A DNA stretch of 64,000 nt, from assembly GCA_951406725.2 (NCBI GenBank), contig OX597820.1, positions 95,108,001-95,172,000 of the forward strand, in the 5' to 3' direction. The position numbers and the translations under genes are program-made. Below are positions 5,563 through 60,400 of this stretch, piece after piece (positions within the stretch are counted from its first letter, which is position 1; each line of letters begins with the position of its first letter). The DNA is from Octopus vulgaris (lineage: Eukaryota). Below the pieces are notes generated by a model. It was not told the origin of the DNA. It made no database searches and saw nothing but the letters and a program-made list of their open reading frames with translations.

Positions 5563-5958
5563 AGAGTAAACACAAAATATTAATACACAAACACAGTGAA
5601 TAGGTAACAGGCTAAGTCTGTCATTCAGTTTTACATCATTATCAAGCACCTTAGGAGCCCTTAACTGAGTCTTCTCTGGTGCAAGCATTCACACACATCT
5701 CCAGTTTAAAGATACCTTCCTTCCTTTCTCCATACCTCCCACAGAGTACTTGGAGAGTTATAGGCACTTTTTCTAAGTGCACAAGACACAGAAAAACACA
5801 TAGAATAAGGCATTGGCATCTTGAAGTTTACACATCACCATTTCTCCCTATGAATTCTTTGAACTTCCAGTCTCACAACTCAATTTCTATCGTCATAAAA
5901 CATTTTAAAATTTTGTGAACAATAGCAAAAAGGGATAATAAAAAAAAAACATAATTAC

Positions 5959-6125
5959 CTGATACAGTTATCGGGATCAGTATCACAGTCAACATTACAT
6001 CGGAATCTCTCCCATGAGAGCCAACCCATTGGTGGTGTCAAAGCAAGGCCATTATCCAGAGACAACACACTTTGACACAGTAGTAAAATGGATGCTAACC
6101 CAAAAGCAATCTTTAAATATACCAT
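5959..6125 (-). CDS. NAGA: First coding exon of alpha-N-acetylgalactosaminidase / alpha-galactosidase (GH27, lysosomal); downstream exons lie left of the window
   Basis: Minus strand reads [55 protein letters not shown](S): a signal peptide plus the GH27 LDNGL..TPPMGW..WERF.C motif. TPPMGW/ERFRC is closer to NAGA than GLA. Phase-2 donor AG|GTAATT after 5959; acceptor tttttgcAG before 6158 leaves a 33-nt 5'UTR part. Confidence 0.9.
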
Positions 6126-6421
6126 TTTCTTTTCTTTCTTGTATTTTCAGGACAGGTTCTGCAAAAAGATAATTGAAAGTATTAAATTGTTGTTGTCCTT
6201 TTTTTTATTTTTTTTATTTTATATAGTAACAGACATGGCTGTGTGGTTAAGAACTTCACTTTGGAACCACAATGTTTCAGGTTCAGTCCCACTACATGGC
6301 ATTTTGAGCAAATGTCTACTACTATAGCCTCAGGCCAACCAATCAATGCCTTATGAGTGAATTTGGTAAACAGAAACTGTGTGGAAGCCCAACATGTCTG
6401 TATATGTATGTGTGTGTGTAT

Positions 6422-45155: not shown

Positions 45156-45920
45156 AGTCGTTAGCACGCCGGGCGAAATGCTTAGTGGTATTTCGTCTGC
45201 GTAACGTTGTGAGTTCAAATTCCGCCGAGGTCGACTTTGCCTTTCATCCTTTCGGGGTCGATAAATTAAGTACCAGTTACGCACTGGCGTCGATGTAATC
45301 GACTTAATACCTATGTCTGTCCTTGTTTGTTCCCTCTGTGTTTAGCCCCCTGTGGGTAATAAAGAAATAGGTATTTCGTCTGCTGTTACGTTGTGAGTTC
45401 CGCCGAGGTCGACTTTGCCTTTCATCCTTTCGGGGTCGATTAAAGAAGTACCAGTTACGCACTGGAGTCGATATAATCGACTTAATCCGTGTGTCTGTCC
45501 TTGTTTATCCCCTCTGTGTTTAGCCCCTTGTGGGTAGTAAAGAAATAGGTATTTTGTCTGCGGTTACGTTCTGAGTTCAAATCCCGCCGAGGTCGACTTT
45601 GCCTTTCATCCTTTCGGGGTCGATTAAAGAAGTACCAGTTACGCACTGGGGTCGATATAATCGACTTAATCCGTGTGTCTGTCCTTGTTTATCCCCTCTG
45701 TGTTTAGCCCCTTGTGGGTAGTAAAGAAATAGGTATTTTGTCTGCGGTTACGTTCTGAGTTCAAATCCCGCCGAGGTCGACTTTGCCTTTCATCCTTTCG
45801 GGGTCGATTAAAGAAGTACCAGTTACGCACTGAGGTTATTATAATCGACTAAATCCGTTTGTCCTTGTTTGTCCCTTCTGTGTTTAGCCCCTTGTGGGTA
45901 GTAAAGAAATAGGTATTTCG
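45156..45920 (+). repeat. Young tandem array of four ~180-bp SINE family B bodies
   Basis: Units start at 45187, 45370, 45548 and 45732 (partial at 45912); 17-bp flanking duplication at 45139-45155 and 45937-45953. Confidence 0.92.
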
Positions 45921-46141: not shown

Positions 46142-46721
<580 letters not shown>

Positions 46722-47000
46722 GTGGATTTTAATATAAATATGTATTGCAGTATTTATAACAGGTTTAATTTCTATGCATTAATTTGTACTGTCTTCATTA
46801 ACGGCAATAGGTTTATTCCTCGGATTTTATAATTTTTATAAGTTTTTTATATTTATATACATATATTTTTGACCTTTTTGTTTATCGCTCGAAGATTGAC
46901 CGTTTTTTCTAAAGGGCCAATCAAACAAGTCCATTTCTTTTTAAAGGTGTAGCGTTTGTAAGAGTATAGATTGAATTAATATATATGTTCCATTCTAGCA

Positions 47001-47047
47001 AAAACTGTCTGATGAACGGCAACGAGAAACTCAGAGTAACAGATTTT
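47001..47047 (+). ncRNA. Minimal type-I hammerhead ribozyme motif within a Penelope pLTR-like insert (46722-47075)
   Basis: aaaactgt-CTGATGA-acggcaacga-GAAA-ctcagag-TA-acagatttt: intact core and stem I, near-palindromic stem III, A.A mismatch at the base of stem II. Confidence 0.7.
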
Positions 47048-47074
47048 GTTGAATTTTCTGCTGCTTAAAATAAA

Positions 47075-47183
<109 letters not shown>

Positions 47184-47408
47184 ATACGAAAATAAAGTTT
47201 TCCGAGTAAATATGTAAATAGTTGGAAATATATTAATTCAATATTCTCTTCAGTTGCATATTTTCAAATTATTTTTGTAAATTCTTAATGTTTCTAGTTT
47301 TTGTACATAAACTGAAAGATCGCTAGTATTTTGCTTCTTTTCTTTCTGTTTTTCTGCTTTTTTCGTATGTATTGATGGGAAAATGTTTCCAAGTTAGTTG
47401 CTGAAATA

Positions 47409-48392
47409 ATGGCGGAAGTAAATGTATTACCCAAAGAAAGATTAGATGAGTTACGTCGCAAGTTATGGGAAGATTATGAAACAATGAAGGATTGTATCCC
47501 GGAGGAGCAGAGGCAGAAAGTATACAAAGGTTATTTCAACAACGTTGGTATACAAAGAGTGTCTGAATCCGTAAAGAAACATATGGTCTTAAGAATCGGG
47601 GCTTCGTTGGATTTTGACATTGAAGAAATTGAAACCACTATTAAAAATGCTAGGGATCATGAAGGTACTCTCAGTGATATTTTGAAAGTGTTTTTGTCAG
47701 ATAGTTTAATTAGTGATTGGGACTTTTACCAGAAATTGCGCAAGATTCTTCGACGATATGAATTACAATATAAGGGTAACGCTGTGGATCTGAAAGCGCC
47801 CTATGAAAAGTGGATTGAAGTAAACATTCCTATCGACACAATCCTCAAACAACTTGACTGGAGAAATATGAAAGAACCCTATTCATATATTCTATGTGTG
47901 GACGATTTAAATAAACTTGACGATTTAAATAAACTTGAGCCTGGTACACCTATTCCTTCCGCTTATCTGCTGTTTAAAATATATTCAAATTTGATCGTTT
48001 GTTGCAAAAATTGCGAGAATGAAACTATCAAAAAATTCAAAGGTGATCTGGAAAAACTATTGAATGATAAGTTCTATTTTTGTTTCTTCCCCTGGAAGAG
48101 AACATTTATCATAAAAGCTGAAGAACAAGTAAAATGCACATATTCAAACCAAACATTGATTGATATAGTCGACAACATATTTCCGAGTTGCTTTTATTCT
48201 GACTCTCTTTTAGATGGAAATAAGATATCTGATAGAGATAAGAAAGATCGCAAGGAATTATGGAATAAACATTTGATACAATTAAAGACGAAGGAAACTC
48301 TCCATAAGTATAGAGTGGATCTTCCAGAAAAAAAATATGTTAAATTTCGTAAAATACGAAGTGAATCATCATCGGTTGAAGATTTTTTGTAA
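47409..48392 (+). CDS. Intronless 327-aa protein with a Death-domain-like region (about aa 43-120) and a possible CARD-like region (about aa 125-225)
   Basis: Only long, non-repetitive, non-TE ORF in the window. Good Kozak context (ataATGG); in-frame 18-nt duplication at 47901-47936. Helical pattern IQRVSESV..VLRIGASLDFDIEEIETTIKN..D....LSDILKVF...LRKILRR resembles Death domains. The domain call is by eye only. Confidence 0.65.
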   Translation: MAEVNVLPKERLDELRRKLWEDYETMKDCIPEEQRQKVYKGYFNNVGIQRVSESVKKHMVLRIGASLDFDIEEIETTIKNARDHEGTLSDILKVFLSDSLISDWDFYQKLRKILRRYELQYKGNAVDLKAPYEKWIEVNIPIDTILKQLDWRNMKEPYSYILCVDDLNKLDDLNKLEPGTPIPSAYLLFKIYSNLIVCCKNCENETIKKFKGDLEKLLNDKFYFCFFPWKRTFIIKAEEQVKCTYSNQTLIDIVDNIFPSCFYSDSLLDGNKISDRDKKDRKELWNKHLIQLKTKETLHKYRVDLPEKKYVKFRKIRSESSSVEDFL

Positions 48393-48676
48393 TGATTCCT
48401 TTATCGATATGTAGGCAAAGACACTTTTTTCAACTCTTCATCTCAATTTCATATTCTCTTTCAAATCCAACGACATTTCAGCCAACTCAAATTCTCATCT
48501 CCTGGCTCATAATTTTCTAGGTCTACGAACCATTGTATCTTCTCTTAAATAATCTTAAATAATAATATAATGTAAGTTAAATATACACCATTTTATGAGA
48601 AACAAATATTAATATTTAATAATTAATGTTATAAAGTTTAATAATTAAATTAATTTTTTGATCTGCTGTTCAAAGG

Positions 48677-49037
48677 GTAAAGATCCCCCTAAAACCCTAA
48701 CCCTAACCGTAACTACAGAAATGTTTTAAAATTTTTGTCTGAATCATAATGTCCACATTTTCCCACAGATTTAGAAAAAAGAAAATTCTACAAAGATTTT
48801 TGGAAATTTTTTTCAAAATCATAATCTCTGTATTTTTCCGCATATATTGAAAAAAAAAACATTCTGAAAAAAGTAAAAAATGAATTAAATGGGGGTGGGG
48901 GTGTTAATTTTAAAAGGCCTATTTTTGCCAATTTTTTTAGCAGATTCATATTCCCCGTAACTGAAAAGTGGAGTTTGTGTCGGAAAAAAAATTTTTTTAA
49001 AGGTGGTTTTTGGTGAGGAACGGGCGGAAGTCTTGCC
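48677..49037. mobile_element. GG-terminated MITE-like remnant; related pieces at about 44890-46110 and 12899-12963
   Basis: Starts GGTAAAGA and ends GGAAGTCTTGCC. Internal aatcataat subrepeats are shared with 46011-46035, and 46101-46110 ends GTCCTTTACC. Confidence 0.45.
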
Positions 49038-57436: not shown

Positions 57437-60400
57437 ATTCTGTAGAGATATTTTGTATTTATGAATCTTGTCAATCAGTGTTATGTAAATATTCTTTGTT
57501 ATTCATTTACCTGTTTTTTGTTTTTTTTTTCATTACACTGATGCCATACTAAGGCATCATATCAACCTCAGTGCTATATGATATCTTCTTTTTTTTTAAA
57601 AAAAAAGAAAGGTATTCGTATGAGATTTGGCTGCTATTTGTTAGATCAGCAACCGTGTTTCTTTTTGCAATATTAATACTTATGGATGTAATGATATTTG
57701 CACAAAATTTTGAAGTTTAAAGGAATTCTCGGTAAGTTTACTATTAGGCCTATCTCACTTTAAGGTTTGCCGAAAGAACGAGTAATTTCCGACGGTTTCG
57801 AATGGTCAGATTCATTCAAAACATCAAGGAAAATGTATAAACAAAAATTTATTGTCTAAATTTACCACTTTTTTTTTTAATGAAATTCTTACATTTCATT
57901 TTGAAACAGATTTAAGAAGGCAAAAATAAGATAGGTTTACTTTAACTAAAAGCGACAGCGTAAATTTAAGGTTATATAGTGTAATGTAAAACGGGGAACT
58001 ACATTGCATGGCTAAATAGTAGAGGTTATGTAAATGGTTGGAGACGTGATAGGAACTTCACGGAATTAATGACACATACACACGAAATAATTTTCATATT
58101 ATCTCCATCAGAATGTGAAACTAACACTCGTAAAAAAATGCGAGTATTGTCTATTCATAACAATCGCTTAAATATTGGGGCTTGCATCTTTCTTGAGTAG
58201 GATGATGTGTCATAGTTGTAAATGAATTGGTATCTGTTTGAAAACTGATTTCGACGTTAAATATTTGTATTTACTTGACAGATTGACTTGTGGGTATCCG
58301 TTTTGAGCCGACCAAAGTCAGTGGATTTGGTAGATGGAAATTGAAAGAAGCCTGTCGTATATATATATATATATCTATATGATTGTGTTTTTGTGTCTGT
58401 CCCCTCTCCCGTCACCGCTTGACAACCGGTGTTGGTGTGTTTACGCCCCCATACCTTAGCGGTTCGGCAAAAGGGACCTATATAATAAGTACTAGGCTTT
58501 AAAAAAGTCCTGAGATCTATTTGTTTGACTAAAACTTTTCAAGACAGTGCTCCAGCATGGCCGCAGTCAAATCACAAAAACAAGTGAAAGAATAGTCTAT
58601 CGATTCAACTTGGTTAGTTGAATATGTACCTTGATGGGCTAATTCCTGTAATTTGCTGATCGATCAGAAATCATGTATACGTATTCAGTATTGACCTTTA
58701 AAAGTTCAATTTTATCCTGGTATGGTCTCTCCAGAGTGCACTGGAATTAGCTTGTATAATCGAGTGAGCATCCATATTTTGAGGCCCTTGTTGGCAAAGG
58801 AACATCCATTCACAAGGGATCTCGTTTGTTAGCGTACAGAGGAACTAGTTGCAGCACCATCTACTGCATGTCAACTTTTTATTTGCATGTCTGAAGCGTC
58901 ATTAGTTTGGTTGTCCGTATATAATACTGTTGTATGTTCTACCTGGTCATCACTCAGGTATTGTAGGATTGGTATGACTAACAGTGATTCCATATTTATA
59001 TAGAAAGTGAATAGAATACTTCATAGGTCATGAGTGTTGTCACTCAATTTGATGAATGTACTTTGGTGTTTGGGAAATGTAGAACAACTGGTAAAAACAG
59101 TAGGTTTTAGGGAAAATGTTGCTGCAACAAAATAGAAAAGGGAATCATCCAGTGTTTTTTGTTTGTTGATGGCAAAGGAACCATGAAATCGTTCACAACT
59201 GTAGCTAGCCATTATTTGGTTTTCATTGTTTGAATGAAATTGGGAGTTTATTTAATGACAAACAACAGTTTTAGTTGTATTTCCTCTGTTCAGCCAGGTA
59301 AGGTTTTAGTATGCAGTCAGTGGATCATGCACTTTAAGGCAGGTAACAAAGAGCATCATGGATTTCTATTAGATTCTGGAGGTTCATGATTGAACAGTAG
59401 ATTCTAGAAAACATGCCAGTGGCATGATTTTGTGTGCCTTGATGATGTAGAATGTCATAGAAGCAAGGTAGCTCAATCTGTCATTCATACACACTGACAT
59501 TACACATTGAATAGTGTATGCTCACTTCATTTCCATCAAGCTATTGCAAACATATCATATTCAAGATTTTGTTTTGCTAACATTGAACATCACACTTCCT
59601 ACACAAGCATCATACAATTTGGTTGTTACATGGACAGATTTCCTTTGTTACTAATTGAAGTAACAACTCACATTATCATCATCATCAATTTAATGTCTAC
59701 TTTTCCATACTTGAATCAGGCAAGAAGAGTAACTTTTCCATACTGAGTGATAGCAGCATTGTGTCCCACCTACACATCATCATCATCATCATCATTGTTT
59801 AACATTCATCTTCCATGCTAGCATGGGTGGGACATTCCACAATAAAATTTTCATACACCCTACCCTTAGAATCCAAACTACATTTCCTCTCCCAAACTGC
59901 ATCTTTTCTCTTTCTCACTATGATTTCACTATGATTGTACACTGTGATTATCTCTGACTTCCCGTCCCTGTCTTCATTGCCCTGCTCACTGTATTGCTGC
60001 TATCTCCATCCCCCTCTTTATTTCCAGGTTCTTGCCAATCACTGCAATATCCACCCCCATTCCCTACATGCACCCTCTTTGCAATACCTGGCCACATATA
60101 TCATGGTCCCATACTTTGAGGGCTTTCCCTGACAGTTACTACCATTTATCTCTCTCATTTACTCTATCCTTCCATCTTTGCTCTGAATCCCATTCCTTGT
60201 GAGTATACCCTGACACTTCATCATCTTTCTGCTTCTTTGCTCTTCCTTCTGGCTGGGTAACCATGTATCTCCTCTACAGCAGCACATCTGTTTCTGCCCT
60301 CATTCTTAATGACTCTCTTCTTCTTTTGCTCTTCTCTCTGGTTAGGTAACCAAGTCTCTTTTACAGCAGCACACCTGTTTCAATCCTCTTTCTTGTTACC

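What the first reader, a model, noticed from the sequence alone, without database searches (positions are those of the whole stretch)
47409..48392. Intronless orphan ORF encoding a candidate death-fold (DD + CARD-like) adaptor
Seen: a 984-bp uninterrupted ORF in DNA where every TE ORF is broken. It has a strong Kozak context, retained CpGs and a frame-preserving 18-nt duplication (DDLNKL x2), and no transposase or RT motif. Inference: aa 43-120 follow the six-helix Death-domain pattern. aa 125-225 (IPIDTILKQL...ILCVDDL...AYLLFKIY...F..DL) and aa 248-295 (IVDNIFP....LL....ISDRD) look weakly CARD-like. A compact enzyme-free multi-death-fold protein would be a RAIDD/FADD-style immune or apoptosis adaptor, possibly lineage-specific. 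The lack of introns, in contrast to the neighbouring genes, suggests retroposition or recent mobility.
Basis: partly seen in the sequence, partly recalled or inferred. Interest (0 to 1): 0.75.

Follow-up and report, generated by a model that had tools for sequence, protein, structure and literature searches.

The report
Fast-evolving single-exon octopus orphan gene
This is an intact, single-copy octopus gene with an intron-free coding sequence and only one known relative; its fast-changing protein likely works by binding other proteins, possibly in defence, but the proposed cell-death adaptor fold is unproven.

Summary
The ORF is real: 327 codons, single copy. Among 1.84 billion protein representatives it has one independent relative, 55% identical end to end, with identity packed into blocks. 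Contigs from four small, probably RNA, assemblies span it without a joint. The public annotation (CAI9725997.1, Octopus vulgaris) cuts it at codon 137 and splices it onto a neighbouring zinc-finger gene's exons. Across the four contigs 18 of 20 substitutions change an amino acid, none adds a stop, and both indels keep the frame; the DDLNKL duplication is an allele, absent in three of four. The death-fold reading is not established. No Pfam hit; both CARD-like regions score at chance. Residues 43-120 align in register with octopus death domains, but only weakly and depending on the alignment used (HH probability 0.7-17%). Structure models were too poor to decide. The genome already holds recognisable FADD and CARD+DD genes elsewhere, also as single ORFs, and no parent gene was found, so retroposition is unsupported. 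Verdict: a genuine, mis-annotated, fast-evolving orphan, likely a helical binding protein; about 30% chance of a degenerate death domain.

The parts
47409..48392 (+). Uninterrupted ORF, 327 aa, 39 kDa, hydrophilic, no transmembrane segment predicted by hydropathy
   Evidence: relative P0002 aligns end to end; contigs of 4 runs span it with no joint
47535..47768 (+). aa 43-120: best-conserved helical segment; weak, alignment-dependent resemblance to a death domain; Phe95 stands where death domains have a near-invariant Trp
   Evidence: 22 identical residues in a row with P0002 at aa 95-116
47916..48056 (+). aa 170-216: second, weaker gapless resemblance to the middle helices of an expanded octopus death-domain family (not CARD)
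   Evidence: 8.6 bits; 0 of 150 column shuffles and 6 of 150 block shuffles reach it; HH probability 10%
47901..47936 (+). 18-nt tandem duplication (6 aa), polymorphic
   Evidence: left out in X2, X5, X17, present in X1
47433..47434 (+). site of a 24-nt in-frame insertion (8 aa, a near-tandem duplication) carried by other alleles
   Evidence: present in X2, X5, X17, absent in X1
47312..48660 (+). span covered by single contigs of probable RNA runs (47312-48630, 47384-48625, 47412-48780, 47419-48660)
   Evidence: table 8; contigs do not show true ends or strand
47820..47821 (+). GT used as splice donor by the truncated public gene model CAI9725997.1
   Evidence: P0003 equals aa 1-137 plus 7 other residues; no joint here in 4 of 4 laid runs
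57723..57731 (+). 9-nt middle exon inferred for the public model; ends at a GTAAGT donor that likely belongs to a 5' exon of the downstream C2H2 zinc-finger gene
   Evidence: last exon lies just beyond the window at L090:869
48393..48549 (-). internal fragment of a multi-copy transposase-like repeat (hAT-type by recalled motif), antisense, starting on the base after the stop codon
   Evidence: 32 matches of 84-93% to this stretch among 40 scored; translations; Pfam gave no family
46703..47075 (+). 3' end of a very young Penelope-like retroelement (RT and GIY-YIG motifs recalled), inserted in a (TA)n tract upstream of the gene, same strand
   Evidence: 40 of 40 scored places 96-100% identical; full copies carry a 727-aa frame; Pfam gave no family

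Best explanation
This is an intact, single-copy octopus gene with an intron-free coding sequence whose 327-residue protein stays open but changes fast, and it likely works as a soluble, non-enzymatic helical protein that binds partner proteins in a defence or cell-death pathway. Shown: the open frame, single copy, one full-length relative with blocks of identity, unspliced contigs, and mostly amino-acid-changing variants. Inferred: transcription (the runs are guessed to be RNA), a mostly helical fold (low-confidence models), and a conserved core of about two helical domains (aa 43-120 and about 160-290) with variable linkers and surfaces. Predicted: the conserved core holds a binding scaffold and the variable surface tracks a changing partner, as an adaptor or decoy would. 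The first domain may be a degenerate death domain (about 30%).
For: Open frame far beyond chance. P0002 is 55% identical (181 of 327) with a 22-residue identical run and 4 runs of 10 or more; p about 1e-4 and 3e-4 against shuffled identity. Only P0002 and the locus's own truncated annotation are found among 1.84 billion representatives. Single contigs from 4 of 4 laid runs (4 studies, 3 organism labels; assemblies of 61-99 million letters against a 2.8-Gb genome) cover 1.2-1.4 kb with no joint. 20 substitutions, no stop, both indels in frame. Changed codons fall at positions shared with P0002 in 4 of 16 cases against 177 of 311 elsewhere, p 0.018. No hydrophobic segment (max 19-residue hydropathy 1.26). 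Region 40-135 aligns over 90 of 93 columns of an octopus death-domain profile, score 19.7; 0 of 100 column, 0 of 100 7-column and 2 of 455 14-column block shuffles reach it; single sequences score 12.8 and 13.3 against at most 10.0 for 41 unrelated windows.
Against: Nothing here shows function, tissue or partner; 'defence' rests on fast change plus a weak pattern. 2 synonymous of 20 is not significantly below the neutral 4.5 (p 0.14), and no stop among 20 changes has p 0.23, so relaxed constraint fits the variants too. The contigs mix individuals and species labels, and 4 A>G changes could be RNA edits; no DNA run was laid. Counting either allele raises 4 of 16 to 6 of 16 (by hand, untested). 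The death-domain match collapses with a trimmed, less redundant alignment: probability 0.3-1.4%, 9 of 60 and 83 of 100 shuffles as high. True divergent octopus death domains score 27.6-61 in leave-one-out tests. About 30 segment-profile-mode comparisons were tried, and the region was first picked by eye from the same sequence.
Confidence: 0.45

Rival explanations
1. A fast-evolving host gene with a non-immune role, such as a reproductive protein or an enzyme whose fold is not recognisable at this depth.
For: Same evidence for a real, fast-changing gene. No family match ties it to immunity. Conserved aromatic and Cys/Pro motifs in the C-terminal half do not resemble death folds.
Against: No catalytic motif recognised; no signal or membrane segment; the weak death-domain register coincides with the best-conserved blocks.
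Confidence: 0.2
2. A captured viral or transposon accessory ORF that the host has kept.
For: Intron-free, AT-rich, no host paralog or parent; repeat fragments on both sides.
Against: Single copy. No viral or transposon relative among 1.84 billion representatives or in viral contigs (0 of 164 pattern matches confirmed). The upstream retroelement ends 334 nt before the ATG and is far younger than the gene; its full copies do not carry the ORF. The transposase fragment is internal and antisense, and the protein's C-terminus is colinear with P0002.
Confidence: 0.15
3. A once-functional gene now under relaxed constraint and drifting in this species group.
For: 18 of 20 substitutions are non-synonymous, compatible with neutrality; two tandem duplications segregate; retroelement insertion near the likely promoter.
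Against: No stop or frameshift in 4 contigs plus the reference; both indels in frame; changes tend to avoid conserved positions; the repeat fragment stops exactly at the stop codon.
Confidence: 0.13
4. One reading: a RAIDD/FADD-style DD plus CARD adaptor that arose by retroposition.
For: Weak in-register death-domain pattern at aa 43-120; no introns in the CDS.
Against: CARD regions at chance. The locus is not among 35 Death, 44 CARD or 3 DED matches in its own genome. Recognisable FADD (C26) and CARD+DD genes (C14) exist elsewhere and do not match it significantly. No parent gene.
Confidence: 0.07

Closest known systems
Death domain superfamily (Pfam Death PF00531), as in the expanded octopus death-domain families on C29-C31
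   Same: Helical pattern of aa 43-120 aligns in register over 75-90 columns; a second gapless 46-column match at aa 170-216.
   Different: No Pfam hit; scores well below true members; near-invariant Trp replaced (Phe95 in the first region, Leu in the second); match vanishes with another alignment.
CRADD/RAIDD (CARD+DD) and FADD (DED+DD) adaptors; both reported as conserved in molluscs including a cephalopod (PMC11463336, passages seen)
   Same: Small, soluble, no enzyme domain found, coded in one ORF like the genome's own copies.
   Different: 327 aa against about 185-230; no CARD or DED signal; not the ortholog; restricted to one known relative rather than conserved across molluscs.
CAI9725997.1 / UniRef100_A0AA36B320, hypothetical protein, Octopus vulgaris, 144 aa
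   Same: Same locus, same ATG, identical over aa 1-137.
   Different: Truncated by a splice into exons beside a zinc-finger gene; the unspliced 327-aa form is the one seen in contigs and conserved in P0002.
Taxon-restricted (orphan) single-exon genes in general (recalled)
   Same: Narrow distribution, fast change, repeat-rich flanks, missed or mangled by annotation.
   Different: Long for a de novo gene and shows block-wise conservation, which points to a folded, older protein.

Membership tests
Death domain (PF00531) | Score above the Pfam cut-off | tested here: not met
   No family at E<=10 for P0001, no death-fold family for P0002 or the three segments; locus absent from 35 own-genome matches
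Death domain (PF00531) | Profile-profile match over all six helices in register | tested here: inconclusive
   Probability 7-17% with the 30-sequence alignment (0 of 60, 2 of 455 block shuffles), 0.1-1.4% with the 19-sequence trimmed one (9 of 60, 83 of 100)
Death domain (PF00531) | Near-invariant core Trp (W48 of alignment A3) | tested here: not met
   Aligned residue is Phe95 in both homologs, a conservative change
Death domain (PF00531) | Six-helix death-fold bundle | tested here: inconclusive
   Models at mean pLDDT 35 and 49; fold searches on them cannot decide
Death domain (PF00531) | Homotypic binding to another death-fold protein | not tested
CARD (PF00619) | Sequence or profile match at aa 125-225 or 248-295 | tested here: not met
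   Global scores 1.0 and 9.3; 58 of 60 and 27 of 60 shuffles as high; HMM no better than shuffles; locus absent from 44 own-genome matches
Death effector domain (PF01335) | Profile match, with acidic residue plus RxDL triad (motif recalled) | tested here: inconclusive
   R-x-E-L at 116-119 is invariant by eye, but a 3-sequence profile gives probability under 2% and 6.3 bits at best
CRADD/RAIDD or FADD ortholog | CARD+DD or DED+DD architecture with clear similarity to the family | tested here: not met
   Recognisable copies lie on C14 and C26; best match of the A1 profile to a C14 ORF is 5.0 bits
Retrogene | Coding sequence without introns | tested here: met
   No joint in 4 of 4 laid runs; a 5' non-coding exon is not excluded
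Retrogene | Intron-containing parent gene | tested here: not met
   Only the locus itself with P0001 (4 candidates) and P0002 (8 candidates; second hit E 8); a very divergent or finely split parent could be missed
Retrogene | Poly(A) remnant and target-site duplication | not tested
   Flanks are overwritten by later repeats
Transposon or viral accessory ORF | Several copies, or carried inside element ends | tested here: not met
   Single copy; not in 8 fetched copies of the upstream element
Transposon or viral accessory ORF | Relative in viral or transposon proteins | tested here: not met
   a two-sequence profile has limited reach

The most novel reading that the evidence does not exclude
An octopod-specific protein built from one or two death domains so diverged that no library sees them, under diversifying selection: a decoy or adaptor that tunes FADD/caspase-8 or CARD-DD signalling in an arms race with pathogens, with length-variant alleles segregating in the common octopus group.
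Probability: 0.25. Interest if true: 0.6.

Novelty: new member of a known kind. Interest (0 to 1): 0.33.

Why it matters
At the least it corrects a gene model: the public record holds 137 of 327 codons, so the protein is invisible to searches and proteomics. It is a clean example of a folded-looking, fast-evolving cephalopod orphan with segregating length alleles. If the death-domain hint holds, it would show that cephalopod cell-death and immune signalling uses adaptors or decoys beyond the reach of current profiles, and that inventories of these pathways undercount.

Full report
Observation. The frame 47409-48392 (+) gives 327 aa without a stop. It is the longest of 57 frames of 100 aa or more in the window and far beyond chance. 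The Kozak context (A at -3, G at +4) and raised CpG (o/e 0.97 against 0.45; 16 of 127 windows as high) are as described. The window lies at G000:C7:95108001-95172000 of a 2.8-Gb genome; the public record of this locus names Octopus vulgaris.

It is a real gene. The protein is single copy in its genome. A word-based search found one relative, P0002, 333 aa, from an unnamed 1414-nt contig. An exhaustive HMMER search of 1.84 billion representatives with the pair found only P0002 and P0003; searches for longer and shorter forms added nothing. P0002 aligns from first to last residue, 181 of 327 identical, and the identities cluster: a run of 22 (aa 95-116) and 4 runs of 10 or more, p about 1e-4 and 3e-4. 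Two frames this diverged do not both stay open, with blocks of identity, without selection on the protein (inference).

Transcription is likely. Twenty runs from 8 studies hold half or more of the sampled words. I laid 4 of the 23 listed runs; in each, one contig of 1.2-1.4 kb covers the ORF with no joint. These assemblies total 61-99 million letters against a 2.8-Gb genome, which suits transcriptomes, but their RNA status is a guess and no DNA run was laid as control.

The public model is truncated. P0003 (CAI9725997.1, 144 aa) is aa 1-137 plus seven other residues. These are explained by a donor at 47820, a 9-nt exon at 57723-57731 and an exon just upstream of a C2H2 zinc-finger ORF beyond the window. 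The contigs run straight through 47820 and P0002 is conserved to the end, so the 327-aa form is the main one. A minor read-through isoform is not excluded, because contigs drop rare variants.

Variation. The four contigs (three organism labels) differ from the window at 20 substitutions in the CDS: 18 non-synonymous, 2 synonymous, no stop. With the same base changes placed at random, 4.5 synonymous are expected (p 0.14) and no stop has p 0.23. So purifying selection is not visible in these variants, and an excess of amino-acid change is suggested but not significant. Two indels segregate, both in frame: the 18-nt duplication (window and X1 only) and a 24-nt insertion after 47433 (X2, X5, X17). 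Changed codons mostly avoid positions shared with P0002 (4 of 16 against 177 of 311, p 0.018), or 6 of 16 if either allele is counted (by hand). Four A>G changes could be RNA edits.

Death-fold test. Pfam finds nothing, and the locus is not among the 35 Death, 44 CARD or 3 DED matches in its own genome. I built profiles from 30 of the 35 death domains, 30 of the 44 CARDs and all 3 DEDs. Plain HMM scores were at or near shuffle level. The two CARD-like regions are at chance: 58 of 60 and 27 of 60 block shuffles score as high. A tandem-DED reading that looked good by eye failed too. Region 40-135 does align with the death-domain profile over 90 of 93 columns, score 19.7, probability 9%; 0 of 100, 0 of 100 and 2 of 455 shuffles of increasing block size reach it, the reversed segment scores 2.8, and single sequences beat 41 of 41 unrelated windows. 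Against this, a trimmed 19-sequence alignment gives probability 0.1-1.4%, with 9 of 60 and 83 of 100 shuffles as high. True divergent members score 27.6-61, the core Trp is Phe95, and about 30 comparisons were tried. A second weak, gapless match at aa 170-216 is to death domains, not CARDs (0 of 150 and 6 of 150 shuffles). AlphaFold models were mostly helical but unreliable (pLDDT 35 and 49). I put a death domain at aa 43-120 at about 30%, and the DD+CARD architecture below 10%.

Origin. No parent gene was found. Lack of introns is not unusual here: the genome's FADD and a C14 cluster of CARD+DD genes are single ORFs, and the right-hand neighbours are zinc-finger genes; the left neighbour is the first exon of an alpha-galactosidase-family gene 41 kb away. 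The flanks are later repeats. A transposase-like fragment, antisense, begins on the base after the stop; the hAT label rests on a recalled motif. The 3' end of a very young element sits in the (TA)n tract upstream; full copies carry a 727-aa frame with recalled RT and GIY-YIG motifs of Penelope-like elements and do not contain the ORF. No viral relative was found.

Mechanism. Shown: intact, conserved-in-blocks, hydrophilic protein with no membrane segment. Inferred: a mostly helical two-domain core with variable surfaces. Predicted: a non-enzymatic binding protein, adaptor or decoy, whose fast change reflects a moving partner, most plausibly in defence or cell death (0.45). Rivals: non-immune fast-evolving gene (0.2), captured viral or transposon ORF (0.15), relaxed constraint (0.13), RAIDD/FADD-style retrogene (0.07).

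Comparison with what is known. FADD and CRADD are reported as conserved in molluscs including a cephalopod (PMC11463336, passages seen), and recognisable copies lie elsewhere in this genome, so this gene is not their ortholog. Seven literature searches (listings only) gave nothing on this gene; supplements were not opened. Earlier notes of this scan hold nothing near this locus or like its sequence.

Verdict. A genuine, mis-annotated, fast-evolving octopus orphan gene. Interest 0.33; 0.6 if the death fold proves true (probability 0.25).

Noticed in passing
window 46703-47075; L114-L121: A very young, high-copy Penelope-like element (motifs recalled); many copies form inverted pairs 1-8 kb apart and sit in (TA)n tracts; L115 holds a 727-aa open frame that Pfam and PDB sequence searches do not recognise.
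   Followed up: partly
   Followed up: partly
G000:C26:2421515-2422048 (L123, L025): FADD-like DED+DD gene in one open frame.
   Followed up: partly
G000:C29, C30, C31 (L032-L054) and C24:38.85-39.06 Mb, C26:30.9-33.8 Mb: Large local expansions of death-domain exons and of CARD-bearing ORFs; L067 is a single ORF with two CARDs.
   Followed up: no
window 5958-6146 (-): First coding exon, with signal-peptide-like start, of an alpha-galactosidase A / NAGA-family gene (PF16499, E 1.2e-11).
   Followed up: no
window 57723-57737 and L090:869-1936, L091:2488-3510: Likely 5' exon donor and coding exons of C2H2 zinc-finger genes to the right of the ORF.
   Followed up: partly
window 47384; L022:1499-1528: X2 contig begins with 26 nt that match another chromosome (C1) through a short shared overlap; likely a chimera.
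   Followed up: yes
window 49605: X2 and X5 contigs leave the reference here; the X5 loose end is a dispersed repeat, suggesting a polymorphic insertion.
   Followed up: partly
window 45187-45920: Four tandem copies of a 184-nt unit related to a dispersed repeat.
   Followed up: no
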